This document shows, in pieces, positions 13,207 to 46,425 of a stretch of 64,000 bases of DNA (position 1 is the first letter of the stretch; each line of letters starts with the position of its first letter). Under the pieces are notes generated by a model. It made no database searches. It saw nothing but the letters and a program-made list of their open reading frames with translations, and had not been told where the DNA came from. A program made the position numbers and the translations under genes. The DNA is from Azolla caroliniana (lineage: Eukaryota; Plantae; Polypodiophyta). The stretch lies in the NCBI GenBank assembly GCA_043228905.1, contig JBHGNT010000002.1:9982001-10046000 (forward strand). The letters are read 5' to 3'.

Positions 13207-13216
13207 AACTCCCCCT

Positions 13217-16200
13217 TCACTTCGGCATGGGATGTCTCTCCAATCCGATCCTTTTCCGGCATGCTTCTAGCTTGTCGGGTGTGAGTACCTTGGTCAGCAT
13301 ATCCGACCCGTTCTCGTCCGTGTGGATCTTCGTCAGCATGAACTCCTTGTCTTCTATCCTTTCCCGGATCCAGTGGTATCTACGCTGGATGTGCTTCGTC
13401 CGGGAGTGATAGGCCGCATTCTTCGCAAGGTGGATGGCACTCTGACTGTCGTAGTAGAGTCGGTACTCCTCCTGCCGGATACTGAGCTCTCTAATGAAGT
13501 CCTTCATCCATATTATTTCCTTGCCGGCTTCAACAGCCGCCATGTACTCCGCCTCCGTGGTTGACAACGCAACCGTCTTCTGCAGCCTCGACTGCCACGA
13601 AACAGCTCCCCCTGCATACGTCATCACATACCCTGATGTGGACCGGCTGGTATCTGCATCAGCCGACATATCCGAATCGGTAAAGCCGTCGAGTTCGGGC
13701 TTTCCGGAGCCGAATCGGAGGCACACGTTTGCCGTGCCCTTCAGGTATCGAAGTATCCACTTGACCGCGTTCCAGTGCTCTTTGCCGGGATTGCTCATGT
13801 ACCGGCTCACCACTCCGACTGCGTATCCTATGTCCGGTCTTGTACACACCATTGCGTACATCAAGCTTCCGACGGCTGAGGCATACAGCACTTTCATCAT
13901 ATCCTCCTTTTCAGCCTTTGTCTTGGGACTTTGCTTGTTGGACAGCTTGCAGTTTGCCGGGAGGGTCGATCCGACCGGTCTTGCTTCCGACATGTTGAAC
14001 CGTTTAAGCACCTTTGTCACGTACTTCTCCTGTGACAGCCACAACTGCTTCTTGCTCCGGTCCCGGATGATGTGCATCCCTAGTATTTGTCTCGCCGGAC
14101 CCAAGTCCTTCATTGAGAAGGTTCGGTGAAGAGCCTTCTTCAGCATCCGTATCTTGACCTGGTCCCGTCTGACGATCAACATGTCGTCCACGTACAGGAG
14201 GAGTATTAGAAAGTCTCCTCCTTCGAACTTCTTCACAAACACGCAGTGGTCGGACTGCGTTTTGAGGTACCCTTCGTCGGTCATGAAGGAGTCGAACTTC
14301 CGGTACCATTGCCGGGGGGCCTGCTTCAGTCCGTAAAGGCTCTTCTTCAACCGGCATACCAGGTGCTCCTTCCCTTTCTTCTCGAATCCTTCCGGTTGCT
14401 GCATGTAGATCTCTTCTTCGAGGTCACCGTGAAGGAATGCCGTCTTCACGTCCATCTGTTCTACCTCGAGGTCCATGCTTGCCGCTATGCTCAGCACCGT
14501 CCGGATGGAGGTCATCTTCACTACCGGGGCAAATATCTCGTCGAAGTCGACGCCCTTCTTCTGCTGAAACCCCTTCACCACGATCCTGGCTTTGTATCTC
14601 GGGGGGTTTCCGGCATCTCCCGGTTTCAGCTTGAACACCCACTTGTTTCGTAGTGCCCGCTTTCCTTTCGGCAACTCCACAAGTTCATATGTGTGGTTCT
14701 CATGCAGGGAATCCATCTCGTCCTGCATGGCACTCAACCACCTGCGGCTCTGGGTGTCATGCTTTGCTTCTTCAAAGCTCTCCGGCTCCCCCTCGTCGGT
14801 TAGCAGCACGTGCTCTGGTTCCGGAAATCTCCGTTCCGGAGCTTCGGTAACCGGTTCTTCCGATTCTTCTTCATCCGAATCCATTTCGGGTTCGGGGCCG
14901 GTTCCGGTATCATTTTCATCTTCTTCGGCCGGTTCTGTTTCTTCACCGTCTTCGGCCGGATCCTCGAGTGCTAACCGGTCCCTTGCCGGTCGGGACTGCT
15001 CCTCGTAGAGTTGATCCTCACCGGTCGACTTGGAGCTCTTCATCTTCTTCTCCGACTCCCAGTCGGCGAGTGTCTTGTCCTCCATGAAGACGATATCTCG
15101 ACTCCTGAATATCTTCTTGTCGACCGGGTCCCATACTCGGTAGCCGAACTCGTCGTCGCCGTATCCGAGGAATATGCATGGCCGGGTCTTTGGATCTAAC
15201 TTTCCTCTCCGGTCCTTTGCCACATGCACGTATGCGAGACACCTGAACACCTTCAGATGCCGGTAGGACACTTCCTTACCGGTCCACACTTTCTGCGGCG
15301 TGTCTCCGTCCAAAGGTACTGAGGGTGATCTATTTATCACATACGTCGCCGTCGACATTGCCTCAGCCCAAAATCCCTTGGGTAATTTCGCATGTGCTAG
15401 CATACTCCGGACCCTCTCCATTATGGTCCGGTTCATCCTCTCGGCCAGCCCGTTCAGTTCCGGCGTCTTCGGCACAGTAAACTCGAGCCGGATTCCCTTC
15501 AAGCGACAGTACTCCGCGAACTGCCCCCGGTATTCCCCTCCGTTATCCGCTCGTATCGCTTTCAGCTTCTTGCCGGATTCTCTTTCCACTCTCGCGTGGA
15601 GTTCTTTGAAGACGGACAATACTTGGTCCTTTGTCTTCAACGGTGCCGTCCACAGCTTCCGGCTGTGGTCATCAATGAATGTCACGAAGTACTGGGCTCC
15701 GCCATGTGACTTCGTTTCTACTTGACACACGTCAGTGTGCACCAACTCCAATGGTGCACTACGTCTCGTCGGTGGCCTTGAGTGGAAGGAGGTCCGGTTT
15801 TGCTTACCGGCCAGACAGTCGGTGCACTTCTCCAGGTGCACATGCTTCACTGGAATAAGGTTGTCTTCTGCAAGCCTCTTCATCCCCTTCTCACTCATGT
15901 GGCACAGTCTCTTGTGCCACAGCTCACCGGCAGCGTCGGCTGCCACATTCAACTCCTCCGGACACAACCAGGCATTCATAAGGTACAGTGTGTTGACTTT
16001 TCGGGCTCGAGCCACTATCAGGCTCCCCTTGCTGAACTTCATTACGCCGTTCCGGATGCTACCCGTATAGCCTTCATCGTCTAGCCTCCCGGCCGAAATC
16101 AGGTTCAATCGAACCTCCGGAACGTGTCGGACATCCTTCAGCAGCATCTTGCATCCGGTTGATGTCATCAGCCACACGTCTCCTATGCCGGCAATCCGGC

Positions 16201-17257
16201 ATGTACCTTCATTTCCCATCCGGACACAGCCGTGCTCACCGACTGTGTAGGATGAGAAGTATTTCTTCTCCGGGGTCAGGTGGAACGACGCTCCGGAATC
16301 GACCACCCAGGTCATCTCTTCACCGGCAAGGTTCAGCTCCCTCTCTTCGGTAATGAGCATTATCTCTTCTTCACTTGCCGCGAGTGCCGTCGTTCCTTTC
16401 CGGTCCTGCCCTCGCCGATCCGGACCTCTCCGGTCCGTGGCTCCCCGGTATGCACCGTTTCTCTCCGGTGACTTCTTCGAATCGGTGTCGTCGGCTCCGT
16501 TGTCCTTTCGGTAATGCCGACAATTCTTCCGGAAGTGCCCCGGCTTCCCACAGTGGAAGCATGTGGGCCTTCCTCTTGACTGCGACCGGGTCCCCGACTT
16601 CTCCCGTCTTTGCGGACTCCGGTTCCATTGTCTTCCCCGATCCGATTCGGTAAGCAGCAACTTCGGATCGGAAACCGGTTCTTTATCTCTCCGACGCGCT
16701 TCTTCGTTCAAAATACTTGTCTTTACCGTTTGTAGGGACAAGTTATCTTCCGTGCAGGAGGTGCTAAGAGTCACCACCAAGTTCTCCCAGCTTTCCGGCA
16801 ATGTACACATCAGGATGATGGCTTGCATTGCATCCTCCAACGGGAACTTGATCGCCGCAAGCTGGTTCACGAATCCCATGAACGTGCTTACGTGTTCCAC
16901 CATACTCTCGCCATCCCGGTACTTGAGGTTCACTATCTTCCTCATCAGGGAGGTCCGGTTCAACGCATTCTTCCTCTCGTAGAGGCCCGACAGCTTCCGC
17001 CACATCTCATATGCGTTGGTGTCGTTCGCCACATGTTGTAGAATGCTCACGTCGACGTATTGCCGAATGGTTGCAACGGCTTTCCGGTTCAGAAGCCTCC
17101 ATTCCGACTCAAGTACCCCCTTCGGTATTTCCGACCTGTCAATCGGTTCGTACAGGTCCCGAACAATCAGAAGATCCTCCATCTTGATCTTCCAGTCAGC
17201 GTAATTCTGCGCATTCAGCACCATCATCCCCGGCTGCCCGCTGCCGCCGCCTTCCAT
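13217..17257 (-). CDS. Copia C Gag-Pol polyprotein (about 1346 aa; Gag, PR, INT, RT, RNase H)
   Basis: Uninterrupted ORF from MEGGGSG with CFHCGKPGHFRKNC, WVVDSGASFH, HHCC/DDE integrase, LYVDDML and RNase H STTEAEY. The frame is also open 130 codons further upstream. Confidence 0.93.
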   Translation of the reverse strand: MEGGGSGQPGMMVLNAQNYADWKIKMEDLLIVRDLYEPIDRSEIPKGVLESEWRLLNRKAVATIRQYVDVSILQHVANDTNAYEMWRKLSGLYERKNALNRTSLMRKIVNLKYRDGESMVEHVSTFMGFVNQLAAIKFPLEDAMQAIILMCTLPESWENLVVTLSTSCTEDNLSLQTVKTSILNEEARRRDKEPVSDPKLLLTESDRGRQWNRSPQRREKSGTRSQSRGRPTCFHCGKPGHFRKNCRHYRKDNGADDTDSKKSPERNGAYRGATDRRGPDRRGQDRKGTTALAASEEEIMLITEERELNLAGEEMTWVVDSGASFHLTPEKKYFSSYTVGEHGCVRMGNEGTCRIAGIGDVWLMTSTGCKMLLKDVRHVPEVRLNLISAGRLDDEGYTGSIRNGVMKFSKGSLIVARARKVNTLYLMNAWLCPEELNVAADAAGELWHKRLCHMSEKGMKRLAEDNLIPVKHVHLEKCTDCLAGKQNRTSFHSRPPTRRSAPLELVHTDVCQVETKSHGGAQYFVTFIDDHSRKLWTAPLKTKDQVLSVFKELHARVERESGKKLKAIRADNGGEYRGQFAEYCRLKGIRLEFTVPKTPELNGLAERMNRTIMERVRSMLAHAKLPKGFWAEAMSTATYVINRSPSVPLDGDTPQKVWTGKEVSYRHLKVFRCLAYVHVAKDRRGKLDPKTRPCIFLGYGDDEFGYRVWDPVDKKIFRSRDIVFMEDKTLADWESEKKMKSSKSTGEDQLYEEQSRPARDRLALEDPAEDGEETEPAEEDENDTGTGPEPEMDSDEEESEEPVTEAPERRFPEPEHVLLTDEGEPESFEEAKHDTQSRRWLSAMQDEMDSLHENHTYELVELPKGKRALRNKWVFKLKPGDAGNPPRYKARIVVKGFQQKKGVDFDEIFAPVVKMTSIRTVLSIAASMDLEVEQMDVKTAFLHGDLEEEIYMQQPEGFEKKGKEHLVCRLKKSLYGLKQAPRQWYRKFDSFMTDEGYLKTQSDHCVFVKKFEGGDFLILLLYVDDMLIVRRDQVKIRMLKKALHRTFSMKDLGPARQILGMHIIRDRSKKQLWLSQEKYVTKVLKRFNMSEARPVGSTLPANCKLSNKQSPKTKAEKEDMMKVLYASAVGSLMYAMVCTRPDIGYAVGVVSRYMSNPGKEHWNAVKWILRYLKGTANVCLRFGSGKPELDGFTDSDMSADADTSRSTSGYVMTYAGGAVSWQSRLQKTVALSTTEAEYMAAVEAGKEIIWMKDFIRELSIRQEEYRLYYDSQSAIHLAKNAAYHSRTKHIQRRYHWIRERIEDKEFMLTKIHTDENGSDMLTKVLTPDKLEACRKRIGLERHPMPK

Positions 17258-17287
17258 TTTCTGCAGCAGCCCGCTCTGATACCAAAT

Positions 17288-18059
17288 TGATGGAAAATGA
17301 ATCGACACTTTCCAAACTTCACCTCTCGGCCACAACCAAGGAAACACACGAATCGTTGTTGCAGAAAAATGGGAAATGCGAAAAATAGAATGGACACACG
17401 ATTTAACGTGGAAAACCCTGTACGGGAAAAACCACGGGAGTACAAGACTCCGAACCAAAACTATGCACAGAGAAATATACAATGGCGAGCTGCAAGGCGA
17501 CGACCTTGAGGTCGCTGTCCTCGCCACAGGCGGCGGAAATACACAGAGGCGTCGACCTCTTCCTCTCTCACACTCTATCTCTCTCGCGGCTACTCTCTCT
17601 TCACTCCTCTTGAGTGGAAAAAACAGAGAAATGATAAGCAACAACATTTAAACTGTTTGCCCTAAGTCATATTTATACACATATGACTTTCAGGCTATTT
17701 ACAAATATAGCCTCAAGGGCTCTTGGCAAACATATTCACAAATATGTCCCCGCATCCGGATCTCTCTCCGGGTACATTCGTCATCCGGCTCCGTAATCGG
17801 GGTCTTCAGCATCCGGTTCCGTAACCGGGGTCTTCATCATCCGGCTCCGTAACCGGGGTCTTCATCATCCGGCTCCGTAGCCGGGGTATTCATCATCCGG
17901 CTCCGTAACCGGGGTCTTCATCATCCGGCTCCGTAACCGGGGTCTTCATCATCCGGCTCCGTAGCCGGGGTCTTCATCATCCGGCTCCGTAGCCGGGGTA
18001 TTCATCATCCGATTCCCGGATATCCGACCATCCCATCCGGAGGGACCGTAATCCCAACA
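17288..18059 (-). repeat. Copia C 5' LTR
   Basis: Adjacent to the PBS; TATAAATA on the minus strand at about 17670-17677. Confidence 0.97.
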
Positions 18060-22876: not shown

Positions 22877-23303
22877 TCATGGTATGCCTTACCGGCTCTA
22901 ACTTCTGATCCCGGCCTGATGCAGGAGGATGAGGCTAGTGAGCTTGAACCGGTCCAGTTAGAAGACAAAGGGTTCGAGACTTTAGATATGAGTCCGGAAT
23001 CATTTCGGTTGAGCGGGCCGAACGAGCGGTTGAATCGGGATGACCAGTCGGATGAGGAACCGATGAGTAGTGGAGACTCTGCCGTGCTCTCCCTACGCAA
23101 GGAACCTAGGAGACGGTTCACGCACAAAGAGAAGGGGAAGAAGAAGATGACAGAATACGAAACCGGCAACGTTGAGTCGGATTGGAGCGAACCCAATTTT
23201 GGTAAGGAAAAAGGAGGATCTTCGGGAACGAAGTCCGAATCAGCCAAGAAGGGCCTCAAACCGGGTAATGATAAATTACGCGGGTCTTCCCGTAGAAGAA
23301 CCC
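22877..23303 (+). pseudogene. Fragment of Copia INT-RT linker (D family)
   Basis: SFRLSGPNE..SSGDSAVLSLRKEPRRRFTHKEKGKKKM matches 35630-35694 and 47244-47460. Confidence 0.8.
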
Positions 23304-24841
23304 CGTGCTCCATCCTCCACCGTAAGCGCCTCCTTTAGTCTCCGGACCGACTCCACGTGCTCCATCCTCCACTCAAAGCTACGCCCCTTTTTCAATAGTC
23401 CGTAGAGGGGTTCCGCGACATGTGCGTAGTGTGGGATCTAGATGTGGTAGAACGCGCATGCACCCAAGAATCTGTGGACCTCCGTAACCGACCCGCAATC
23501 GTTCCTCATCGCGGAGATGGCCTCTACCTTTGTCGGAGACGGTTTCCTACCATAAGGCCCGCACAGGTGTCCGACCACCAAGATCTCCGACTGCCCGAAC
23601 GCCGATTTTTCTCCAGAGAAGGTGAGTCGTGCGCTCTCGAGCTTCTGCAGCACCTTCTCGCAGTCGTTGATGTGGTTCATGACGAACCTCCGGCATCCGT
23701 CTAGCCTGACAGTCTCGTTCGCATCTTCCATCGGACACCCCTTTATCAGGATGTCGTCCAAGAATGGCATGGTGATGTCCAGGATGCAGTCCCTCAGCAC
23801 CTTGTTAATTGCGTTCACCATATGCGCCACCGAATTCGTCCCACCTTGTGGTAGGGTACACATCCATACTAGGCCGAGAGGAGTTCGCATCGTCGTGATA
23901 TCCCTACTCTCCACAGCTAGCTGGAACTGGTCATACCCTGAGTATAAGTCACCGACCGAATAGATCGACCTTCCAGCGAAGGCCTCCGCGAACTCGTCTA
24001 TGGTCGGTCTGATTCCTGCATTACGGATGGTCACCCTGTTGACTGGTTGCAGGTCCTGAATGAAGCGCAGCGTGCCGTTCTTCTTCGGCACCATAAACCA
24101 CCGATTCGAGTACGGGGCACTTGACGGTTCGAGGATGCCCATCTCCACCTTTTGCTTCAGAAGCTCCATCAACTTCGGGATGTGAGCTTTCGGCACCGGA
24201 ATCGGTTTGAGATTCCATGGTACATGCGGTACTGTGAAGATCACCATCGGTTCGACGATCGTTGGGTCCACGCACCCGATCTCCTATGGCGAGAACGCAA
24301 AGCCTTTCCCATGCCCTCCAAGCATTCTCCGAAACCTATCCTCCTCCGTCGGCAGTAGAAAGCCACCCCCACCGACCTTGAGCTCCCGTAGCGTTATGTC
24401 GGTGAACCGGTGCCCTATGCCAGCCGGATTCCGTAAACATAGGTCAAACGCAACCCCTCTTATCCGCTCCTCGTTGCCCTCCGACAAGGGTGCCGCGACT
24501 GGCCTCACCTTCCGGTCCAGAGTCTTGTACTTTGTATCCACGCGGGCCGTCCAATCCGACCCGATCCTTTCCCCGAAGTCCGCGATGACTTCGTACATTC
24601 CCATCAAACAAACCGGAATGGTCCAGTCTTCTCTAAGGTCTTCACCGATCACCTTTCGCAACTCGCCCAAGGTGTTGTCAAAAGAGACCACCTCCATGGC
24701 GCCGTTGATTTCTTCGTCGGGGGAGAGGACTCCGCATCCCCTGAGCCGCTCCTCTGCTTGCTTCCTCTCCCGGCCGTTGACGCTAGTTATAGTACAACCT
24801 CCGTTTTCGGAGAACCAAAACTTCCTACCTACTGTACATGT

Positions 24842-24907
24842 GTGGGGTTCTTCCGGTACGTCTGGACTACTGCGGCCCCACGCCTTGATAGCCCTCTCTA
24901 AAAATCC
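24842..24907 (-). promoter_or_regulatory. Putative -1 programmed ribosomal frameshift signal (PR to RT)
   Basis: G GAT TTT directly before the TAG of the PR ORF, a 6-nt spacer, then a predicted two-stem pseudoknot. The -1 frame is open into the RT frame. Confidence 0.7.
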
Positions 24908-26827
24908 CCTCGGCTGCCGCCGCCGAGGGTCTCGCGATTCCTCTCATGGTTCGGACGTACGGTCATGAATTGCACGGAATGCCGACCGTCTTGGCTCTTG
25001 ACGCGCGCGTACGCCGAACCGTTGTCTAGCACCTTCGTCAAAATGTGTGCTGCCATAATGTACGGTTCGCCGAGAATCACCGGGTGCGAGGATGTTTCCT
25101 GCACGAAGAAATGTTGATCTATCTCGACGTCACCAATCTTTACGCGTACATTCTGGCACACATCATGCAGCTCCTCCGTAGCACGCGTCGCCGCGCGTAT
25201 CTTCCACCCATGCTTGGTGTTGATCGGCCATTTACCCTTCTTGTAGAAATCCATGGACATCAGGTTGATTTCAGATCCATGGTCTACCAAGGCCACCATC
25301 GGTTCAAGAATGTCACCAATCCGCACAGGGGTTTCCGTAGTTGCCCTGGCCCAATGCAGCTTCGCGTAGTGGCTTTCCGCCAACTCGTCTTCTAGGGCCG
25401 TGTCTTCTAAGTGCGCAGTCCGCACCTCCACCGGCTTCTCCGGTTCTGGCTCCGTCGAGAGCCTCTTCCGCTTCACCAAGTCTACGATGGAGTCGTGCAA
25501 CTCCCTCTTGGCGATTCCCAGCACCTCCCGCAACGACAGCTCCACTTTACTGTCGAGGATCCGCTCTTCAAGGACTTTCCGTAGGTCCGTTGCTCTCTCG
25601 ATTTCGGTGCTCAACTGAAACCCCGCCTACTTCCCTCTACGGGGAACCGACCCCTCCGGCCTTTCCTGCCCGTTTGTCTTTCACCAAAACCTGGTAGTTC
25701 TGGCAAGCGGCTTCTACAAAGCCCGTTTTCTCTTCGACCGGATCATCCCATCCGGTGACCTCCTCAACCCGTTGTTCCGCGTGGTCCGCCTCTTCCTTCT
25801 TCAATCGAACTCCGGAGAGGCCTTCTAGCACTAGCGACCAGAATCCGGAGTCCTTCGCCTTTCGGGTCTCATCACCCCCGACCCGAATTCCCGCCGACAC
25901 TGAGTAGCAAACAGCTTCTACATGCCGTGTCGTGGCCTCTTCCATCAACCTCTTCATTCCGTCGCGCCCTGTATTCAATTCTGAGGCTCTCCGGGTCTCA
26001 CTCGCGTGCACCCGTCCATTCCAGAGGTACACCACATTGGTCCTAAGTGCGTCGGCGAAATCCGCGCAATCCTTCCGAATGTGACCAATCGCGTCACACC
26101 ACATGCACTGCTGCCAAGCCGGCGGCCTCCGGTCGCGAGGTTGTTCGCCGCTATCTCTCCGGGCCTGTGCGATCTGCAGGTCGCGCACCATTTGTGTCAG
26201 CTCCTCCAGAGCCACTCCTCCGGATGGGCCTTTGACCACGTCATTCGATGCCGAATCCGACTCCAGCCAAATTCGGGTCTCTTCCTTCCTTCCGGCTGGC
26301 ACCGATACCTGCTCCTGGAGCCTCCTCGCCGGGACCGGTCTTGACTCCGACGAGCTTTCGTCTCTCCACTCGCGCCATTTGTCGAAACGGCTGCAGACCC
26401 GTTTTACCACGGCCCAGTCTTCCGTGAGCCCTTCGTCCGTCTCCAATAGGGGACCCACCTTTTCCCTGTCGAGCGCGTCCACCGACTTGACAAACAGTAG
26501 TACTCGACTCGTTTCGAGCACGGTCCGGTCCAGCGTCGACAGCCGCACGAATCGTTTTTCGAACTCCTGGAGGAGCGCCGACGTGTTCCTCCCTTTTCCG
26601 GGGCTTTCCACCCACGCCATGAAGTCTCGCCTCGACAGCCAAAGCGAGTCATCAAACCCGTACTTCTCGAGGAGCTACAGCTCGAACTCCTCCCAAGTCT
26701 GGCATCCGGCCAGCACCTCGAGCACCTCCGCGTGGATGCTCAGCGTCACCACCCGAGGGAATCCGAACAACCGCCTGTCCACTGGGATATCCCTCATGAT
26801 CATTTCGGCCCGGTAAGCCTCCAAATA

Positions 26828-27167
26828 ACTTGTGGGATTCTTCCCACCAAATCGGCCTATGCTACCGATGATCGATTCAATGGCTCTGTCGAGGGTACTC
26901 GTCCCCTCGCGAGCGCTCACCAGCCGGTCGACGGCTACCGCCATTGCCTCTGCTAGCTCCAATCCCCTCATCTTCTGACTCCTTTGCCGCATGTTCACTT
27001 GTGGGATTCTTCCCACCAAATCGGCCTATGCTACCGACGATCGATTCAATGGCTCTGTCGAGGGTACTCGTCCCCTCGCGAGCGCTCACCAGCCGGTTGA
27101 CGGCTACTGCCATTGCCTCTGCTAGCTCCAATCCCCTCATCTTCCGACTCCTTTGCCGCATGTTCAC
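26828..27167. repeat. 169-bp tandem duplication of the gag start
   Basis: ACTTGTGGGATTC...GCCGCATGTTC occurs twice with a period of 169. Confidence 0.92.
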
Positions 27168-27180
27168 GTCAGGTTCACCA
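27163..27180 (-). promoter_or_regulatory. Primer-binding site complementary to tRNA-Trp
   Basis: Plus strand TTCACGTCAGGTTCACCA versus the plant tRNA-Trp 3' end TTCACGTCGGGTTCACCA (recalled from memory; 17/18). It lies 4 nt from the LTR, and the gag ATG follows at 27161. Confidence 0.8.
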
Positions 27181-28052
27181 ATTATGTCGCGAAGTTTCGC
27201 GTTCACGTGTAGGAAGAGGCGGGACCACAGGGGTCTTGGACCAAGGAGAGAGTGAGAGAGAGAGAGAGAGGGAGAGAGTTGCAGATACACAGAAAGAAAA
27301 AAAAAGAGCAAGAAACAGGAATCCGGTCACTATAATCAGTAGCTTACAACTCGAATAGTTACAACTGGCAATCCGGTAATGGACCTGACACGGGGTCCTA
27401 CTCACGGACACGTACGATAGCCACACGACTCAAAGAAACAAAAAGGGGGAAGGGGAGAGAGAGAGAGAGCCTCTGCTGGAAGCACACGGGTTGTCCACGA
27501 AGCAGAGACAACGAACGACGATCGGAGGAGAGAGAGAGAGCTCGGCCCTCGGTTCTGCAGCAGCACTTCGTCCTCGCCAACGCGCGATACCCTTTCTTCC
27601 TTCTCTCCTTCCTTAAAAAGTTCACCGAGGGGAGACCCTTCTCCCCTAGTCAAATCGCTTTATTCCCTGTCCCTTTTGATAGAGACACTCCCAAATCCCC
27701 TAATAAAGGTGTACTACCTAGTATTTACATCAGCCGACCTAATTATGAATTATGTACAAAATATCAATTATCGCGTCCACCCATGTAAGAGCCGGTTCAT
27801 GCGCCTTTTTCTCCGATTCCGCCTATGGCCGGTTTTCTTCACAACAACGTAGTGAGAGTAGAGAACAAAAGAACAAAAAACTGATGAGAGTGAATTGAGC
27901 TCTGCATGTAATGAAATAGAAGAAGCTTTTTGGTTTGCTACATAGAGGTAAGTCTCCTTCCCCCTTTCTTTCTATCTTGAGCACACTAATGATCTAGCAC
28001 ATCACGATCCGTTGTGCACAAAGAAGAGCCGGAGCGCCTTCATAACACTTTT

Positions 28053-29563: not shown

Positions 29564-31659
29564 GTGAGAAATCCACCATGATCGGGTTATTGAAAGAATT
29601 CAAGGACGTTTTCGTATGGTCATACGAAGATATGAGGAGACTGGACCCGAAATTATACCAGCCCAAATCCACCTAAACAAGGACGCCAAACCGGTAGCCC
29701 GGCGACACTACCGGATGAATCTGAATTATGTGCTAAAGGTGAAGGAGGAAATCGATAAATTGTTGCGCATCAGGTTCATCCGGCTGGTAAATCAAGCCAC
29801 GTGGCTCAGTCCAATCATCGTAGTGCCCAAGAAAAATGGGAAATTTTGGGTGTGCGTAGATTACCAAAAGTTGAATGTGGCCACGGTCACATATGCATTC
29901 CCGCTATCGTTTACAAATGGAGTACTGGATGCGATAGCAGAACACAAGGTATATAAGTTCCTAGACGGATTCAGTTGGTACAATCAGATCTTGATGCATC
30001 TGAGACCAAGAGAAGACACCATTTGTTATGGAATGGGGAGTATTTGTGGCTGTAGTAATGATGTTTGGACTCAAGACTGCACCCGCAATATTCCAGCGGA
30101 TCATAATGTAAATCTTTGGCGAATACATTCCGGCCTTTATGCCGTATACAGCTAGAAGGAGGACCACTTAGACCATCTCCGCTTGTGTCTTGAAAAATGC
30201 CAGGGATCCCGATTAGGTTTGAATCCAGCTAAGTGTGCATTTGGGATCACGAATGGAGCGTTGTTAGGGCACATTGTAAGTAAAGAACCGCGGTAGATCC
30301 GGATAAGGTTAAAGCAATCCTGCAAGCACTGGCACCAACAAATGCGAAGGTCTTGAGTCGATTCCTGGGTCGGATCCAATGGCATAGCCGGATGCTCTGA
30401 TACTTGGCTGATTTCGCTACTCCACTACACGCAACAATGCAAAGATTACCCTTCCAGTGGACGGAGCACGAGGATAAAGCATACCATGCGCTTAAAGTCA
30501 TGCTCTCACAAGCTCCAGGGGTACAACCACCAGACTGGTCTAGAGATTTTCACGTATTTGTGGATGCTTTGGATGTCGCAATCTAAACTGTATTAATGCA
30601 ACTGATAGAGCCGAAGTGGTACCGGCCGGTGTATTATGCGAACCGGAAACTCTCCAAAGCCAAATGAAACTATTCAACAATGGAAAGAGAAGCTCTTAGA
30701 ATGGTATATAGTGTCACAAAGTACCAACACTATTTGTTGTGCCGAAAATTTGCATTCCATGTTGACTACTCCGCATTGGTTTACCTGGTGTCGAAAGCAT
30801 CACTTACCGGAAAACTAGCTAGGTGGACCTTACTATTGCAGGAGTTCGAATTTGATATATACCATTGACCTGGAGTGCAACATGTGGTGGCTGATTACAT
30901 GAGCTAGCTAGAATTCGATGAACGCCGACGATGGCGTCCGCAACGAATTTCCGGACGCAAAGCTATTTAAAATTATCGAGGCAGTAGTAGATGAATCGGT
31001 CACCGGCGAGGATAAGTGGATGACAGATATGCATCAATTCTGGAGTGCTAGACTACCATTGGAAGAGCTGAGCTAGGACAAGCAAAAATGTCTAGCAGTA
31101 CAAAGCCGGCATTTTCGTCTTGTCATGCACACGTTGTACCACAAGGGAGCGGGCGGAGTATGGTGACGGGTAGTTTGATGCGATGAGAAGGACGCAGTAT
31201 TATGCAAGGCACACTTTGGAGTCGCCTGTGGACACTATGCCGGAGACGCAACAACCCGGAAAATATGGTGGCCAACCACCCTTAAGGACTCAATACGGTA
31301 TTCTAAGGAGTGTGATTTGTGCCAACGGATGGAGCAACCAATGGAGTAGGCACAAATGCCACATCAACCGGTGCTACAGTTGGAACCTTTCTAGAAATGG
31401 GGGTTGGATTTTGTCAGGCCGTTCAAGCTACCGAGAACTGGTACATTATTGTAGCCACGGATTATTGTAGAAAGTGGGTGGAATCAAAGGCGCTCCGGGA
31501 CAACACCGCGGCATCCACGACGAAGCTATTGTATGAGTACATTTAGTGCCGGTATGGCTATCCGATCGAGCTCATAGGCGACTAACGCGGACACTTCATA
31601 GGACAAGTAGTGGAGACTCTAACGACATTCTATGTAGTGGTCCATAAGAGAAGCACGCC

Positions 31660-32046
31660 TGTTGAGAGACAAGCTCAACATCGGCCAGATTGGCCGAAGA
31701 AGCCGAGGACCGGATCGGTTGGGACCGATCGGTTAGGCCGAGTACATAAACCGGGAGGTCGTTAGGAAAGATATTCCGTGATGAATATATTTGGGAGTTA
31801 GTGTAGGGCTCTTAATGAGCATTGAAGTACTGTCAGTACTTCGGTCAGTCCTTCTAGGGCTTGTATAAAAGTGTTCACTGAGCACGTCTTATGTACAGAC
31901 TGAGCACTATTATTGAATATAGTATTTTTTGTGTTTCTCTCTCTGTCTCTCCTGTGTACACCGTGTAAGCTCAAGCTCTCCATTAAACCTGAGTTTCCTC
32001 CCTTCTGTTCGGTCTTCATACTAGCATCTGCACGTTTCTTTTTACA
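31660..32046 (+). mobile_element. Copia solo LTR (387 bp), TSD ACGCC
   Basis: TGTTGAGAGAC...TTTACA; ACGCC at 31655-31659 and 32047-32051; TATAAAA at about 31864. Confidence 0.92.
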
Positions 32047-33182
32047 ACGCCGTACTACCCGCAAGCGAATGGACTAGCAAAATCAACGAACAAAACGCTT
32101 CAGATTATCTTACAGAAGATTGGGAACATGAACCGGACGGACTAGGATATGAAGTTGCACAGTGCGTTGTGGGCATACTGGACAACATACAAAACGAGCA
32201 TCCCGTCAACACTGTTTCGACTGGCATTCAGACTTGAAGTGGTAATGCCAATGGAGTTCCAGATAGCAATTTGCGGATATAGGTATGGGAATGGTTGAGC
32301 GAGAAAGAATCGGAATGGATCCAGTTGGAAACGTTGTGTGAGATGGAAGAACACCAGATATCAAGCTTGATGCAATTAGAGCTAGAGCAGCATCGACGGA
32401 AAGCATTTGTGGACCGACATCGGAAAGGGAACGAGAAGGAATTCGGAATCGGGAAACCGGTGTTGGTATTTTAGACCCGGATGGGAAGCATGCCAGGGAT
32501 GCTCAAGTTCCGATGGACCAAACCATACTAGATAATGTGTGAGTTTAAAGGATCCTATCAGCTCGGAACATTGGTCGGAGAGCTACTCGAGAAATGGGTA
32601 AATCGATTCCGGCTTAAACCTTACACAGGACTGATGCTAGAAAACCCATTCAGGGAACTAGAGGAGCACGACGACCAACCAACCAGAGAGAAGGTTACCG
32701 GAAGATCCTCGATGGCACAGGAGCCGGTAAAGCAGAAAGTCTCACAGGCCTCAACGGCACTCGGTACGGGAGGATAGTTTACGTCGCACCTGAAGGAAAT
32801 AATAGTAGTAGTAGTAGTAGTAATAATAATAATAATAAACGTAATCATAACAATAGTAGTATGATGAAAAAAAGAAAAAAAAGAAAAGAAAGAGATATTC
32901 CAGATATTGAACGGTCATAATGAAAAGGTGAATGGAAGCGGTGTGACGTCAGCCACATTTAAGGAGCACCAAGTGGCACAATCATACCATAATGATACAC
33001 GACGTGCATGCGTGGGAATCAAGAATGGGCACCTGAGAAAGATGGGTATACAAAATTTCCGAAGAAACGAGGGAGTCTCATTTCGCGAAAGAAAGATCTT
33101 CAGAGCACAAACTGCACAGGCTTCTAGAAAAGCACTGGCACTCAACCTCCAGAGCGAGCTCGACACAGAAAATACAGAAGCC

Positions 33183-34486
33183 ATGGCGCTCTCAAACGAA
33201 GCAAAGAACTGGCTCATCAAGAACGGCCTCGAAGGTTTCATCCGGGTAGCCGAGGCACCACCACATGAATAACCGGAGGTGGTCGCGACAACAATTGATG
33301 TGGACAGAATCTCCGAAGTAATGGTGCAAGCAGCGATAGAACTACCTTCCGGAGGAATGCACTCAATCGAGAACCCCTCCACTCAAATACTGACAGGATA
33401 TTTTGGGGAGTTCTCAATCGTGAGCAAGGCATATCGGACAAAGGGTGGCGAAAACCCCCTATTTCGGGAAGTGGCTCAGGTGTTGCTTGAGTATGGATTT
33501 GTTCATCCCCGACCACTCGTCATGCCCAAGAACAAGGTTGGTTTCATTATCGCAACATTCGAAGGCTTAAGGGTGGACTGACCCTTAATCGTGGCGGATT
33601 CACTCCAGATGGCGATTTCAGTTGTAGTCAACGAGAAGAAAGCATGGGTCGGAGTAGCACAATGGCTTAATGTGCTAGTACCCCCGATGCACTAAAGAAA
33701 CGGGCACGATAGGAGACCACGCCAAACAAACCATCCAAACGGCAACAACTCCTAGCTAAACAGACCCCTGGATGGACAGTAGGGACATCCTAGCAAGCAA
33801 ACCAGTTCCGGAGCCGCGGAGAGAAGAGCCGGTGAAAGCGGCAAAACCCATTAAAATAAAGCTACGAAGACATGGCAGGTAACAGACGGAACAAACAAGG
33901 ATGGCACACCAGAAACCGAGGATGAGGAGAACCTAGAAGATGAAGGGGAACCCCTCCAGAGACATCCTAAAAAACAGGAAAGGGGGCAGCATGGGGAAGG
34001 ATCGGGTCTGCAGAAGGATAATATGCCGACTCCCAGCTCAACAGTGGTGGAGCCAAGATCAGAGCCGCAGAAAAAAGGAAGGCCAGAAGCGGTGGACAGG
34101 GTTCTGCATGAACCAGGGCAAGAACATACTACACAGACACAACTGTAGGAGGACGCACAAAGATCGACGTTGGACTAGGAGATGGAAGAGACAGCTAGAC
34201 AGAACTTCGGGGAGGAGCAAGGGCGGATGCCAGAAGCAGTACAACAGTTCATTGTGCTCACACAAAACGGAACTTGCCGACAATGGTTGGAGTGGCTAGG
34301 CAAGCAGGTTGCTAGTGTGGTTGACCGAATGGATGTACAATAAAGATGGGATCCATAGCAGGCAGAATGGTTACTTGGAGCAACTGAAGAGTTAGAAAAG
34401 GCCCGCAATTAGATCCGGAGGTTAGAGGAGAAGTTGGCTAGGACCAAGGAATTAGCGGCCATTATGGCAAACATTATCCAAAGGGG
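33183..34486 (+). pseudogene. Additional sense ORF downstream of pol (element E copy), function unknown
   Basis: MALSNEAKNWLIKNGLEGFIRVAEAPPHE..GGENPLFREVAQVLLEYGFVHPRP; homologous to the copy starting at 42086. Confidence 0.8.
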
Positions 34487-34874
34487 TGTTAGGATATGCA
34501 TGTTATCCGACTATTTCCGAATACCTTCCGGATTACTCAATACGTCTCCGATTAATTATAACACACATAAGGTTAACGATTAAAGCACAGAATGGCAAGC
34601 ACACAATAGGAACAATAGCATTAAGATCAACGCACTAATCTTGTATTACTTTCGTTAGATTTATCATCAATCCAGACCCTTTTATAGGCGTCCAGTAGAG
34701 CTTACAAAACGGTGCCTTACCAGCTACCGGCAATAAATATGTGCAGATCCGGATCGGTACAACTATCCAGATCCGTCCGTTCCTATAAAATTACTTAACT
34801 ACGACATACTAATAATTATACTCCGACTCATCCTCATTCATATTACTCCTCTAGGACATACTCCTCGGCCAACA
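34487..34874 (-). mobile_element. Solo LTR related to the Gypsy F LTR, flanks unmatched
   Basis: Reverse complement TGTTGGCCGAGGAGTATG..ATAGTTGTACCGATCCGGATC resembles 35695 onward. Flanks are AGGGG and AACGT. Confidence 0.85.
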
Positions 34875-36180
34875 AACGTGAGCATTGGAGGAAGTCGTTA
34901 CTTTGTAACCTTCATCGATGACTACACTCAGCACACTTGGGTGTGCTTGATCGAAAAGAAGAGCGAAGTCTTCTTCTGTTTCCTGAAGGTGAAGAGCCTT
35001 GCTAAACGGGAAACCGGCAGAAAATTCAAGTGCCTAAGGTCCGATGGCGGAAAGGAGTACTTTTCCGACCAGTTCTCGAGTTTTCTACAGAAGGAAGGAT
35101 TTCGGTGAGAATTCTCTTGCAGATACACACCGGAGCATAATGGTGTGGCCGAGCGGAAGAATCGGACCATACAGGAGGTAGCACGGGCAATGCTTGAGGA
35201 GAAGCATATGTCAAACTTTTACTGGGCTGAAGCGGTTCAGACAGCCGTCTACCTACAGAATCGGACAAATGCAAATGGACGAGTGTCGCCACATGAGTTG
35301 TATTTCGAGAAGAAGCCAAACTTGGCACACTTGAGGGTTCGATAGCATAGCATATGTCCATGTGTCGAAGGAGAAACGAAGGAACCTAGACGCGAAAGCC
35401 GAGAAGTGCATTCTCGTGGGCTACTCAGATGAGCAAAAGGGTTATACGTGTTATAACCCCCGAACGAAAGAGGTCCGAGTAAGCCGAGATGTCGTTTTCG
35501 ACAAGTCGGTGTCATGGTACTTGCCCTCATCTCCAACCCTCAACAACTCCATTCCTATCTTTGAGGACAACGTCAATGAGGCTGAAATGCCTCCAGAAGA
35601 AGAAGGAATTAGAGCTCAAGAAGAGAGTATGATCTCATTCCGGCTAAGTGGACCGAATGAGTGACTGAGTCAGATCAACTTGTCAGATGAGGAGTGTTGG
35701 CCAGAGTATGGTCTGGAGGACAAATATGGAAAGGAAGGAGTCAGAGTTGAATATTATATTTAGAGAAATAATTAGTTAGAAATATTATAGGAACGAGCGG
35801 ATCTAGAATAGTTGTACCGATCCGGATCCGGACCGATTCATAGTTGGTAGCCGATAAGGCACCATTTTGTATTCCCAACTGGAGGCCTATAAAAGGATGG
35901 GAATCAATGTAATAGCTAGCAGAAGTAATACAAGTTGGAGTTTTCATTTAAGAGCATTGTGTTCCTTGTCTACTTGCCATTTTGTGCTTTCATTCTCTAT
36001 CTTACGCGTGTTCTAATTAAACGGTTGCTCATTACCCCAAACCGGAACGTATCCGGAATCAGTCAGATTAGAATCGGATCGGTGTCGGATAACATCATTC
36101 CCATAAATACCTCTTTGGTGAAGTGTTCTGGAAGGACACCTTGTGTTTGTGGCTAGTCCAGCCCAGGATAAACATAGTTT

Positions 36181-36193
36181 TGGTGACCACAAT
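36181..36193 (+). promoter_or_regulatory. PBS, probably tRNA-Arg(UCG)
   Basis: TGGTGACCACAAT versus the expected TGGCGACCACAGT (recalled tRNA sequence; two transitions), 6 nt after the LTR. Confidence 0.6.
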
Positions 36194-36211
36194 TCCTACA
36201 AGGTGCAACGA

Positions 36212-39200
36212 ATGACGGGGAATGGATGACTAGACCGACCAACAACCCAGTCACCGAATGAGCAAGAATACTAGCCGAGAGACTACGGAGGGGGGAGGCC
36301 TACGAGTAGGCGGCCAAGGAGATCCAACAAGATCGGTCTTTTCACATAGATATTCGGCAAGTCACGGAGGAGACAATCTAGTCACAAAACCAACAACATT
36401 CAGACGAAGGCAGTAGTCTCAGCAGTTTACACGACATAGAATTGATACTGCAAACCCTAGCCACGAGCTTCGGGGACTCAGAAACATTTTCCACATTTGA
36501 GTCAAAGTCGAATGACGAACACAACGTCCTTTCAAACTACCAAAGCAGTCACGACACTCCGAACAAACCAGAGGACGACGGTTCAGAGCACACACTGACA
36601 CCATAATCGGAAACGACGTTACCAATATTGCCGGAAAACAAGAGGAATCCGGACCAACAAACCAAGAGGACGGGCAATCGAGTACCAACACCACCAGTGG
36701 ACCGACAATCGGAAGAGAAGAACGACCGTGTACCGACGCCACCACCGGACCGGCAATCAGAGAAAAAGGACAATCGGGTACCAACACCACCCCCGGAACA
36801 ACCTTTAGACGAAGACACCATGCCGTACATGTACCCAAAATACCGGGACAACCCAGATGCAGAGGCACATGTCTATGCCTTCTTACAGACATGGGAAGGT
36901 AACCATGTCTCGCAACGACTGATAGAAGCAGAGGCTGAGCGTTCAAAAATCGCGGAGTTCAGAATGACCAACAACGAAGTGGAATGCAAAGCATCTTCCC
37001 AATAGGTTTTCTACGTTGGATGCCCTAAAGGAAAAAAAAATTCTACTGTTTCACAGATAGGTGGAACAAAGGGAGTTAGTCGGACAATTTTACACGACCA
37101 AGAGGAGGATCTGCGATTCCGCCAACCAGTGCAATGCACCACGTGCCTCAACCTCAAACACTCCACGTTAGAATGCACAATGCGGACTCAGTGCATATTG
37201 TGCCACTCCCAGTCACACACTATAGACCGGTGTGAGTACAATTTGTTAAATCGGCAAGCGGCACCGGTCCAACATATTGAGCGTCGAAGTGAGCTACGAC
37301 TAGACAAGGATCCAGTGGATGAACGTTACCACCCGGAACATGGTGATCGGTATGAGGACAGAAGAAGAGACGCCTACGACCAGGATCGCTATGAGCGCGA
37401 TTACTCCCCGGATTATAACCAGCGAAGGGATGATAGAAGGTACCCGAAATGGCGAGCCTACCAAGACCAAGACAAACGAAACCCGGAATGCCAAGGGTAC
37501 CGCAATCACCGACGCAATTAGAACCGTAGGGGCAATTTTCGCCGAGATGAGCGTCGTGAACAGGCCCGGGAATACCATCGGGAACCGGATATAAACATGG
37601 CCACTATCCCACAACCAAAGCAACGGAGACCGGAAGATAGCAATCGGATGAATCCCGGTATCCAACCTAGAAAAAAGGGAATCAAGAAATATCCAAAAAG
37701 TGTACTGCTACTATTGTCAGAAGGAAGGCCATTATAGCACCTAGTGCCTAGTCACGTCTAATGTGAAACAGCCGACAGTGAACATGGTGACCGCAAAAGT
37801 CATGGATGTATAGCAAGTCACCACCCGATCGAAAGGGAAAGCTGCAAAGTGGGAGACCCAAGAGGCAATCTGAAAGCAGGTTACCGAGTGGATATAGAAG
37901 GCCAATGAACGGAATGTGGCCGAAGTAAAAGAACAGTCCAAGTTTCCAGCGGAACCACTCGAGACCACAGATGACGACCCAACCTGGCAAGCGTTGCAAC
38001 AATGCCAGATTATGTTGCCTCTAGGCCGCCTATTACAATTGGTTCCTCATTTACAGTAGGCCTTAAATTGGCATTACCACCACAGAATCCAGAGCCGGCA
38101 CCAACATTCTTTTCCAATCCAGAGGACGGACCGGTCGTAGTGGACACAAGTAGTCTAGCAATCACGATGATAATCAAAGGAAGCGAGATACTCAGAACCA
38201 TTATTGACGGAGGTTCCGGTGTAAATGTAATCAAGCAACGAAGTAGGGATCAACAAATGGGAGTCGTGCTCATTTTGGCTACGAATGGCAAACACTAGTT
38301 CGGCCCGGCCAACCGGACTCATCCAGGACCTCGACATTACAATCGAAGGCCAAGCGTTCTGAATCTCCGCAATGGTACTGCAACTCAACGCACTAGGGCT
38401 TACCCCCTATTATTAGGACGACCATGGTTGCTTACGGCGCATATTAAGCAAACTTGGCAAAAGAACGTGATTACCTTCCAACGAGGGAAAACTAAGGTGC
38501 GGGTGTCGACACAACAACGGGTTGGTACAACTAAGCAGCTAACGCCACAATACACAGAGAGTATTAACATGCTGGATGGATTCTCAGATGACGAAGTCGA
38601 CCGATATCTAGAGGAACACCCCAAGATTGTGTCGTTATTTGAAGTAGATGTAGTCGAAGCCGTCACGTCATACGTCACGCACCAGGAGGATGAATTGGAC
38701 GAGCCGGATCAGGAGGCAGTTCGGGAACTACGATAGGCACAAGAATCACTGGAGAGGGAAACGGCAGTATCCGAAAGAGTAAAGGTATCGAAGGTAGAAG
38801 AAGTCAACCTCGGGACACGGGAGGCACCGAGACCAGTAAATGTGGCAAAGGAAATGCCACCGAAATAGAAAACGGCAATGGTGGAGCTACTCAAAGAATT
38901 CCAGGATGTTTTTGCATGGTCATATGAGGATATGTGAGGGTTGGACCCCCAGTTGTACCAACATCAGATCCATCTGAGTAAGGATGCAAAGCCGGTAGCG
39001 CAACAACATTACTGAATGAACCCAAATTACGTAGCAAAAGGAAAGGAAGAAATTGATATGATGCTAAGAGTCGGTTTTATCCAACCAATAAAACAAGCCA
39101 TGTGGTTGAGCCTGATAGTTATTGCACCAAAAAAGAACAGAAAAATTCGGGTTTGTGTCGACTATCGAAAGCTGAATGCGGCCACGTTGACTCACGCTTT

Positions 39201-41640
39201 TCCTCAACCATTCACAGACGGGGTATTAGACACGGTCACCAGTCACAAAGTGTACAGTTTCTTGGACGGATTCATCGGATAATATCAAATTCGGATGCAC
39301 CCAGCGAACCAGGAAAAGACGGCGTTCGTCATGGAGTGAGGAGTGTTTGTCGTAGTGGTCATGATGTTTTGACTAAAAACAGCATCGGCGACGTTTCAAA
39401 TAATCATAATGGAGATATTTGGAGAATACATCTCGACTTTTATGCAAGTATTTTTGGACGATTTTGCAGTCTATAGATGACAGGAAGATCATTTGAACCA
39501 TCTCTGGATGTGTTTGGAAAAGTGTCGGGGATCCTGACTAAGCCTCAATCCGGCAAAATGTGTTTTTGGGGTAACAAGCGGGGCACTACTCGGACACATC
39601 GTCAACAAGGATGGAATTATTGTAGACCCGGAAAAGGTAAAAGCAATCTTGCAACCACCAATGCCAACCAACGCCAAAGCATTGAACCAGTTCTTAGGAC
39701 AGATCCGGTGGCACAACCGAACGCTTTGATACCTAGCAGACTTCGCAACTCCATTACATGCAGTTGTGCACTACATACCCTTTCAATGGACGGAGCAAGA
39801 AGAGAAAGCGTATCATGCATTGAAAGTGATGCTGTCACAAGCTACGGTAGTGCAACCTCCTGATTGGACGAAAGATTTTCATGTGTTCGTTGATGCGTCA
39901 AACATAGCAATCGGGAGTGTCCTCATGCAGTTTACCAAACCAAAGTGGTACCATCCGATATATTACGCGAGCCAGAAACTCTCAAAAGTTGAACGGAATT
40001 ACTCCACAACAGAAAGAGAAGCTCTAGGGATGGTATATAGCGTCACAAAGTACTGCCACTATCTGTTAGGGGGCGAGTTTTCATTCCATGTAGACCACTT
40101 GGCACTAATCTATTTGGTATCCAAGGCATCATTAACCAATCAGGTCGCGAGATGGACACTCCTACTACAAGCGTTCAAAGTTGAGATCTACCACCGACCG
40201 GGAGTATAGTATAGCATGCGGTGGCCGACTACTTGAGCCGGCTAGAATCTGGCGAAGCAAGGGACGGAGTCCGACATGAGTTTCCCGATGCCGAGCTATT
40301 CAAGGTTATTGCGGAGATGGTTGTAGATGAGACAGTGGCTGGAGAAGATAAGTGGTTCACCGACATGCACTAGTTCCTGAGTACCGGATTACCTCCGGAA
40401 GAACTCAGCCAGCATGAACGGAAACGCCCTGTTGTCCAAAGCCGACACTTTTGTTTAGTGCAGGATACAGTGTACCATAAGGGAGCTAACGGTATTTGGC
40501 GATGTGCGGTGCGGAGTGACGAGAAAGAAGCAATCTTACGAGAGGCGCATCGCGGCGTTGCTGGCAGGCACTATGCCGGAGATGCCACCACCCGGAAACT
40601 TTGGCGAAGTGGGTTATGGTGACCGACAACCCTCATGGACGTGGTTTGGTATTGTAAAGAGTGCAATCTATGCCAACAATTGGGCCAACCAACGAAGCAG
40701 GCTTAGATGCCCCATCAACCAGTGTTGCCATTGGAACCTTTCTAAAAGTGGGGGTTAGACTTTGTGGGACCATTTACATCGCCAACAATGTGTACGGGGA
40801 ACCGGTATATCATAGTGGCCACCAACTATTATACAAAATGGGTGGAAGCAAAAGCGCTCCAGGACAACACCGCGACGTCAACAGCTAAGTTTCTATACAA
40901 GTACATATGGTGCCGGTACAGGTGCCCGATTGAGCTGATTAACGACCATGAAGGAAATTTCCTCGGCCACGTGGTGGAAAGCCTAACTTCCTTCTATGTA
41001 GTAGTGCATAAATGCAGCATGCCATACTACCCGCAGGCAAACGGATTGGTGGAGTCAACAAATAAGACGCTCCAAAACATCCTCCGGAAGATTGTAAATA
41101 AGAACCCGACGAATTGGGACACCAAACTACACAGCGCGATATGGGCATATAGGACGGTGTATAAAACGAGTATCCAGACAACATTGTTCCGGTTGGTATT
41201 CGAACTAGAGGCGGTAATGCCCATGGAGTTTCAGATCCCCAGTTTACGGATTCAGGTTCGGAAGCGATTGAGTGAGAAGGAATCCGAAATAATCTGGTTG
41301 GCAACATTATGTGAATTAGAGGAACAATGGATAACTAGTGTGTTGCAATTAGAGCTCAAGCAACGAAGATGGAAAGCTTTTGTGGATCGGCACAGGAAAG
41401 GCAATGAGAAGAACTTCAGCATAGGCAAGCCAGTATTGGTATTCCAGACCCGGATGGGCAGTGTTCTGGACCTGATCATTCTGGATTACAAGGGAGTTCA
41501 AAGGGTCTTACCAACTCGGAACACTAGCCAGCGAGGTACTGGACAAATGGATCAACGGGTTCCGTATAAAGCTGTATAAAGGACCGATGCCGGAGAACCC
41601 TTTTAAGGAACTGGAGGAACGGCAGGAAACCGGAGGAGAA
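36212..41640 (+). pseudogene. Gypsy F gag-pol, degenerate
   Basis: Knuckles CTTCLNLKHSTLEC, CILCHSQSHTIDRC and CYYCQKEGHY; protease IIDGGSGVN; RT VDYRKLN and FLDDF; RH VFVDAS; INT YYPQANGLVES. Confidence 0.9.
36670..36800 (+). repeat. 48-bp in-frame repeat x about 3 in gag (RVPTPP.DRQSE.K)
   Basis: Peptide repeat visible in ORF 36628..37005. Confidence 0.85.
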
Positions 41641-46421: not shown

Positions 46422-46425
46422 ACGT

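What the first reader, a model, noticed from the sequence alone, without database searches (positions are those of the whole stretch)
27159..27846. tRNA-Trp-primed Gypsy with an 18-nt PBS and gag ATG abutting it
Seen: 4 nt inside the LTR end lies TGGTGAACCTGACGTGAA, and the gag ATG follows after one base, so there is essentially no leader between PBS and gag. Known (sequence recalled): this is the complement of the plant tRNA-Trp 3' end with one transition. Plant LTR elements mostly use iMet, as four other elements in this window do; tRNA-Trp priming is typical of avian retroviruses. The RT (RFIQDLQPVN, DLYSGYDQF, LPQGGTNS) and the DHG protease motif differ from the other two Gypsy lineages here and resemble fungal-type elements (impression only). 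With the post-protease frameshift, this would be a convergent ASLV-like strategy.
Basis: partly seen in the sequence, partly recalled or inferred. Interest (0 to 1): 0.75.

Follow-up and report, generated by a model that had tools for sequence, protein, structure and literature searches.

The report
Phygy retrotransposon frameshifts after its protease
This is a broken copy of a known plant jumping-gene lineage (Phygy) whose tryptophan-tRNA primer site is already described, but its many relatives share a slippery sequence and a predicted RNA knot right after the protease, which likely makes ribosomes slip back one base to produce the reverse transcriptase, a signal I did not find described for plant elements.

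Summary
In detail: LTR 27185-27846, 18-nt tRNA-Trp PBS 27163-27180, ATG one base later (minus strand). The element is a truncated Phygy Ty3/gypsy copy: its RT is 124/175 identical (counted by eye) to a REXdb Phygy RT, and Phygy is already listed with tRNA-Trp (81%) and 4-bp NCGN target sites. So Trp priming is not new. The abutting ATG is a minority variant (5 of 20 nearest copies); the shared start lies 22-23 nt after the PBS. In 40 of 44 relatives with a protease motif, a Gag-protease ORF overlaps pol in the -1 frame; 37 of these 40 end in G_GAU_UUU plus stop. Six bases on lies a predicted H-type pseudoknot with compensatory changes in both stems, confirmed on two held-out variants. REXdb lists Phygy's ORF layout as not determined, and my searches found no description. 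DHG is clade-wide, and the RT is closer to fungal and Chara elements than to the window's other Gypsies. Frameshifting is inferred, not measured. New variant of a known kind; interest 0.45.

The parts
27847..27850 (-). 5' flank ACGT, fits the Phygy NCGN target site (partner TSD absent because the copy is truncated)
27185..27846 (-). 5' LTR, 662 nt, TG...CA; no second copy in the window
27163..27180 (-). 18-nt primer binding site for tRNA-Trp(CCA), 4 nt inside the LTR end
27159..27161 (-). ATG one base after the PBS; minority variant, in frame with the shared start 7 codons later
   Evidence: 5 of 20 nearest copies; 0 of 30 unselected loci
27138..27140 (-). Shared gag start codon, 22 nt after the PBS (inferred start)
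   Evidence: 19 of 20 nearest copies at +22/+23
26828..27165 (-). 169-nt tandem duplication over the gag start, not seen in the sister copies; breaks the frame
25634..27140 (-). gag remnant with CCHC knuckle, one internal stop; 62-nt deletion at its 3' end relative to sister copies
24901..25380 (-). Aspartic protease domain at the end of the Gag-protease ORF; DHG triad at 25276-25284
24898..24907 (-). Slippery heptamer G_GAU_UUU (24901-24907) followed by the Gag-protease stop codon
24842..24894 (-). Predicted H-type pseudoknot: stem 1 24894-24887 with 24871-24864; stem 2 24881-24876 with 24847-24842
23297..24907 (-). pol remnant in the -1 frame: tether, RT core (about 23567-24091), start of RNase H; two internal stops; truncated

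Best explanation
The window holds a dead, 3'-truncated Phygy Ty3/gypsy retrotransposon with a tRNA-Trp primer site, and its clade encodes Gag plus protease in one frame and RT-RNase H-integrase in the -1 frame, likely joined by programmed -1 ribosomal frameshifting at G_GAU_UUU with a predicted pseudoknot 6 nt downstream. Shown: the Trp PBS, Phygy membership, the two-ORF layout, the conserved heptamer and the covarying stems. Inferred: most ribosomes stop after the protease and a minority slip back one base into pol, so protease would be made at Gag level and RT/integrase at a low ratio, as in avian sarcoma-leukosis viruses. Speculative: DHG in place of D[TS]G may weaken a protease made in excess. 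Translation likely starts at the ATG 22 nt after the PBS; the ATG at +1 would add seven residues in the copies that have it.
For: Layout: of 54 metagenome loci examined (of 80 fetched; those with upstream sequence), 44 have a protease motif, 40 of 44 have Gag-PR overlapping pol in -1, none is an intact in-frame fusion, and 37 of 40 end G_GAT_TTT+stop. The same in-frame heptamer occurs at 2 of 9997 other codon positions in 14 Gag-PR ORFs. Own genome: 4 of 20 stretches hold both ORFs unbroken in this layout. Proteins: of 88 contig-derived Gag-PR homologs, 59 end DF, 3 GF, 3 NF, 18 have DF/GF five codons before the end, 5 end otherwise. Stem 1: 97.7% of 256 cells paired, 6 of 8 pairs with two-sided changes, 0 of 500 shuffles reach the covariation score, slid controls 21-44% paired. 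Stem 2: 5 of 6 pairs with two-sided changes at a fixed register; cognate versus swapped strands p=0.0013. Held-out L118 (G_GGU_UUU) and L196 (G_GUU_UUU) pair 8/8 and 6/6 with new stem sequences. In 32 sequences the pol frame is open only 1-70 codons upstream of the site, and the first Met falls anywhere from codon 3 to 111 in the 31 that have one. [quoted passage not shown]
Against: No translation or RNA data: no RNA holder was listed. Alignment A2 was picked by the presence of the heptamer and holds related sequences from few samples, so cells are not independent (9 distinct stem-2 5' strands). Stem 2 is weaker: 79.7% paired at a fixed register, with loop 3 varying from 11 to 16 nt, and the cognate strand ranks first in only 5 of 9 groups. 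The window's own hairpin is no more stable than shuffles (z -0.29; relatives -0.6 to -4.8; the folding tool cannot model pseudoknots). Four of the 44 loci have broken frames. For the named moss, liverwort and fern proteins only the protein ends were seen, not the DNA.
Confidence: 0.85

Rival explanations
1. [quoted passage not shown]
For: The window's site reads like a 3' splice site. The Ogre intron is described in PMC6317226 section 13.
Against: The triplet after the heptamer is TAA 13, TAG 12, TGA 5, CAG 1, CAC 1 of 32, so AG is not kept. The ORFs overlap by 10-121 nt instead of being spaced. No fixed pol start codon.
Confidence: 0.05
2. The structure stimulates stop-codon readthrough or another recoding event, or serves packaging or dimerisation, and pol is reached by reinitiation.
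For: The stop lies directly before the structure in 30 of 32 sequences. Retand has GAG-PROT and RT separated by one stop.
Against: Past the stop the zero frame closes again within 3-117 codons and is not pol. In L109, L118 and L130 the stop has moved while heptamer, spacer and stems stay. Heptamer variants keep the slippery form.
Confidence: 0.07
3. One reading: an undescribed lineage that converged on ASLV as a package (Trp primer, no leader, post-protease frameshift).
For: Trp PBS and the post-protease -1 layout are both real.
Against: The RT is Phygy, Trp priming is published for Phygy, and the +1 ATG is a minority variant. Nothing links primer choice to the frameshift.
Confidence: 0.03

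Closest known systems
Phygy (non-chromovirus Ty3/gypsy; Neumann et al. 2019, PMC6317226: passages, sections 8, 13, 15 and additional files 2, 5, 6 read)
   Same: RT 124/175 identical by eye to Phygy-1 with no gaps and the same insertion after the LDD motif; tRNA-Trp PBS; 4-bp NCGN TSD; no chromodomain or aRH; coding region fills the interior.
   Different: Full-length copies here are 6.9-7.9 kb against 7.66-9.97 kb in P. patens. REXdb gives the ORF layout as 'ND'; here it is resolved as Gag-PR with -1 overlapping RT-RH-IN. Homologs also occur in Riccia and Adiantum.
Rous sarcoma virus / ASLV (PMC5009743 passages; primer, protease position and leader recalled)
   Same: -1 shift into pol with a pseudoknot; from recall, tRNA-Trp primer and protease at the end of the gag ORF.
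   Different: No env; different heptamer; PBS-to-ATG distance 13-55 nt; 4-bp TSD; analogy, not kinship.
Pea enation mosaic virus (umbravirus) -1 shift site (PMC5009743 passage)
   Same: Same heptamer G_GAU_UUU with a nearby stop codon.
   Different: RNA virus polymerase gene; here the 3' element is a compact local pseudoknot.
Ogre and Retand (Tat) elements (PMC6317226)
   Same: [quoted passage not shown]
   Different: Separated by an intron (Ogre) or a single stop (Retand), Arg/Lys primers, aRH present; RT of a different type.
Fungal non-chromovirus (Ylt1-like) Gypsy elements (PMC2864245, passages and section 5 read)
   Same: RT 41-46% identical to named Smittium, Zalerion and Chara proteins against 26-30% to the window's other Gypsies; shared DUF4100 domain.
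   Different: No Ylt1 reference was in my tree, so the label is a lead; distant hits show D[TSN]G, not DHG; their frameshift status was not tested.

Membership tests
Phygy | RT sequence belongs to the Phygy branch | tested here: met
   Four REXdb Phygy RTs printed in PMC11963269 supplement file 2 line up without gaps with the window RT; 124/175 identical to Phygy-1, counted by eye; the Selgy and Ogre RTs printed beside them lack the insertion. The references were not placed in a tree.
Phygy | tRNA-Trp PBS (81% of 186 elements) | tested here: met
   the first 30 exact Trp-PBS loci of the genome all hit this lineage's Gag
Phygy | 4-bp NCGN target-site duplication | tested here: met
   9 of 12 paired-LTR elements have identical NCGN TSDs, 1 differs by a CpG transition, 2 have unclear ends; window flank ACGT
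Phygy | No chromodomain, aRH or extra ORF; polyprotein fills the interior | tested here: met
   Pfam on three pol ORFs of relatives gives only RT, RNase H and integrase; ORF maps
Phygy | Element length 7.66-9.97 kb (descriptive range from P. patens) | tested here: inconclusive
   8 full-size copies measure 6.9-7.9 kb; one falls inside the range; LTR length varies from about 650 to 1100 nt
Classical -1 programmed frameshift signal | Slippery heptamer in frame at the end of ORF1, ORF2 in -1 | tested here: met
Classical -1 programmed frameshift signal | Stimulatory structure 5-9 nt downstream | tested here: met
   spacer 6 (5 in L196); covariation in both stems; predicted, not probed
Classical -1 programmed frameshift signal | Measured transframe product | not testable with these tools
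   needs a reporter assay, ribosome profiling or proteomics
Retropepsin protease | Retroviral-protease fold with catalytic Asp | tested here: met
   model pLDDT 80; best matches are Ddi1 retroviral-protease-like domains (E 3.5e-6), then retroviral proteases; Asp and Gly invariant in 53 sequences; Pfam hits are below the curated cut-offs
Retropepsin protease | D-[TS]-G triad | tested here: not met
   DHG in 111 of 120 homologs, 1 DCG, 8 without motif; DSG in 4 loci; activity not tested
Ylt1-like fungal clade | RT groups with Ylt1 references | tested here: inconclusive
   land-plant group (support 0.94) sits among fungal and Chara hits but deep nodes are weak and no Ylt1 reference was available
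Alpharetrovirus (ASLV) | env gene and retroviral RT | tested here: not met
   paired-LTR copies carry only Gag-PR and pol; RT is Phygy type

The most novel reading that the evidence does not exclude
Phygy is a moss-liverwort-fern branch of fungal-type Gypsy elements and the first plant LTR retrotransposon clade with a classical pseudoknot-driven -1 ribosomal frameshift, placed after the protease so that a non-canonical DHG protease is made one-to-one with Gag, the avian retrovirus strategy reached independently.
Probability: 0.5. Interest if true: 0.62.

Novelty: new variant of a known kind. Interest (0 to 1): 0.45.

Why it matters
It fills a blank in the reference classification (Phygy ORF layout 'not determined') and supplies a native plant -1 frameshift signal with natural compensatory variants that can be tested directly. 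A 2016 review reports that the 2003 survey found only +1 gag/pol overlaps in plant elements. The lineage is abundant (5870 exact PBS matches in this genome), so gene finders meet it often; the named homologs are annotated as predicted or hypothetical proteins. The headline as given, tRNA-Trp priming with no leader, is ordinary.

Tried and rejected
Trp priming as a novelty: rejected. ATG abutting the PBS as a family trait: rejected. The idea that the window's other non-chromovirus family (29567-47238) is the real Phygy: rejected; it has another PBS in all 23 of 25 loci where one was found, and the REXdb Phygy RT matches this element instead. A gag extension into the LTR: the frame is open through the PBS, but the 8 upstream stretches printed show no start codon in frame, and the spacing shifts by 1-3 nt between subfamilies. 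The PBS T variant as a copy of a variant tRNA gene: possible (5 of 67 pattern hits carry the matching base), but the copy checked has other damage, so CpG decay is simpler; 7 of the first 100 PBS hits have it. Rfam: no meaningful match over the shift site. Expression: no RNA holder listed; laying three contig sets said nothing on splicing or expression. Literature: full-text searches (listings; one returned no paper) showed no description of frameshifting in Phygy; the 2003 recoding survey was not held, and REXdb additional files 1 and 3 were too large and its Fig. 4 is not viewable, so they may show the two-ORF layout. Repbase and subscription journals were not searchable. Earlier scan findings: nothing on this signal. 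The host species was not determined.

Full report
Observation. The element lies on the minus strand. The LTR runs 27846-27185 (662 nt, TG...CA), followed by 4 nt, the 18-nt PBS (27180-27163), one base and ATG. A pattern search of the own genome gave 67 hits; ARAGORN called tRNA-Trp(CCA) at 6 of 8 loci tested. The window PBS matches the common gene at 17 of 18 positions and a degenerate gene copy at 18 of 18. The genome has 5870 exact matches to the two PBS forms and none to the reversed control.

State of this copy. It is dead. A 169-nt tandem duplication covers the gag start, 62 nt are missing at the gag/protease junction relative to sister copies, gag and pol carry stops, and homology to pol ends at about 23297 with no integrase or 3' LTR in the window.

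The ATG beside the PBS. Among the 20 nearest copies fetched (of 39 other places listed), the triplet is AGG 11, ATG 5, AAG 2, GTG 1, CAG 1, whereas an ATG at +22/+23 is present in 19. In the first 30 exact PBS loci of the genome the first ATG lies at +15 to +44, never +1. In 28 metagenome loci with a PBS it lies at +13 to +55. A short PBS-to-gag distance is normal for the clade; an abutting start is not a family trait.

Which family. Neumann et al. 2019 (PMC6317226; passages, sections 8, 13, 15, additional files 2, 5, 6) list Phygy as 186 P. patens elements with 4-bp NCGN target sites, tRNA-Trp in 81%, no extra domains and ORF organisation 'ND'. Four REXdb Phygy RTs are printed in a supplement of PMC11963269 (passages and supplement search only). 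The window RT aligns to them without gaps; I count 124 of 175 identities to Phygy-1 by eye, including an insertion after LDD that the Selgy and Ogre RTs lack. In 20 further own-genome stretches, 12 elements have paired LTRs; 9 have identical NCGN TSDs, 1 differs at a CpG, 2 have unclear ends. Three pol ORFs of relatives show RT, RNase H and integrase only. The one mismatch is length, 6.9-7.9 kb against 7.66-9.97 kb. Named homologs come from P. patens, Riccia sorocarpa and Adiantum nelumboides. The element is a Phygy member and the Trp primer is known.

The frameshift. Of 80 metagenome loci at 54-94% RT identity, I examined the 54 with upstream sequence (66-94%). Of these, 44 have a protease motif, 40 have a Gag-protease ORF overlapping pol by 10-121 nt in the -1 frame, and 4 are broken; 37 of the 40 end in G_GAT_TTT plus stop. 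The stop varies (TAA 13, TAG 12, TGA 5, sense 2 of 32) while the heptamer does not, and the same in-frame heptamer occurs at 2 of 9997 other codon positions. Four of the 20 own-genome stretches hold both ORFs unbroken in this layout. At protein level, 83 of 88 contig-derived Gag-PR homologs end in DF, GF or NF or carry DF/GF five codons before the end; several P. patens, Riccia and Adiantum gene models end the same way, though their DNA was not seen. Many loci are re-assemblies of the same families, so these counts overstate independence.

The stimulator. Six bases after the heptamer, an 8-bp stem pairs in 97.7% of cells over 32 distinct sequences, with two-sided changes at 6 of 8 pairs; no shuffle of 500 reaches its covariation score and slid partners pair 21-44%. 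Its loop pairs with a 6-nt strand 11-16 nt further on: 5 of 6 pairs show two-sided changes at a fixed register, 79.7% paired, and cognate strands beat swapped ones (p 0.0013; first rank in 5 of 9 groups). This alignment was chosen by the heptamer, but two loci outside it, with G_GGU_UUU and G_GUU_UUU, pair 8/8 and 6/6 using new stem sequences. Single-sequence folding recovers stem 1 in all 6 sequences, with z from -0.29 (window) to -4.82. Rfam has no match. [quoted passage not shown]

Mechanism. Shown: layout, heptamer, covarying stems, no fixed pol start codon, and a pol frame that opens only 1-70 codons before the site. Inferred: -1 ribosomal frameshifting makes Gag-PR-Pol as a minor product and Gag-PR as the major one. 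Splicing is unlikely because AG is not conserved; readthrough does not reach pol. No expression data were obtained.

Protease and kinship. The DHG domain folds as a retropepsin (pLDDT 80; Ddi1 and retroviral proteases). DHG is in 111 of 120 homologs, DSG in 4 loci, DTG in some Riccia models. That His weakens an abundant protease is speculation. In a 158-sequence RT tree the element sits in a group with Riccia (support 0.94) among fungal and Chara hits of 41-46% identity, against 26-30% for the window's other Gypsies; deep nodes are weak and no Ylt1 reference was included. Neumann et al. call the link between plant and non-plant non-chromoviruses unclear.

Novelty. Ten full-text searches showed no account of frameshifting in Phygy. 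The 2016 review says the 2003 survey found only +1 overlaps in plant elements; I could not read that survey. REXdb lists overlapping GAG/PROT frames for Tcn1, Selgy and SIRE without direction, and a post-protease split for Ogre and Retand by other means. Files and figures I could not see may show the layout. Verdict: known family and primer, with a probably undescribed, well-supported recoding signal. Interest 0.45.

Noticed in passing
window 29567-47238 (two copies of a second non-chromovirus Gypsy family; PBS near 36182; 3' LTR start near 44953): This family has a different, non-Trp PBS, and a CCA-ending tRNA-like stretch sits just before its 3' LTR where a polypurine tract is expected. This fits earlier scan notes on an Arg-tRNA site replacing the PPT; the tRNA identity was not tested here.
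   Followed up: partly
G000:C8:17796786-17823371, C5:10105608-10112201, C16:4989149-5105657: Tandem arrays of tRNA-Trp-like genes (about 1.2 kb and 0.87 kb spacing); some C16 copies have changed anticodons.
   Followed up: partly
L205, L206, L209, L211 (own genome, C1): Short paired-LTR elements of 4.1-5.4 kb with the Trp PBS and no long pol ORF; possibly non-autonomous Phygy derivatives.
   Followed up: no
L193-L203, just before the 3' LTR: The Phygy plus-strand primer site is a G-rich tract interrupted by pyrimidines, not a pure polypurine run.
   Followed up: no
window 23297-23375: The element breaks off at the second copy of a 17-nt direct repeat; the DNA beyond (23065-23306) resembles 47249-47491 at about 72%.
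   Followed up: no
window 12432-18059: A young element with 99.7% identical 775-nt LTRs containing a 28-nt tandem repeat and one 1476-codon ORF on the minus strand.
   Followed up: no
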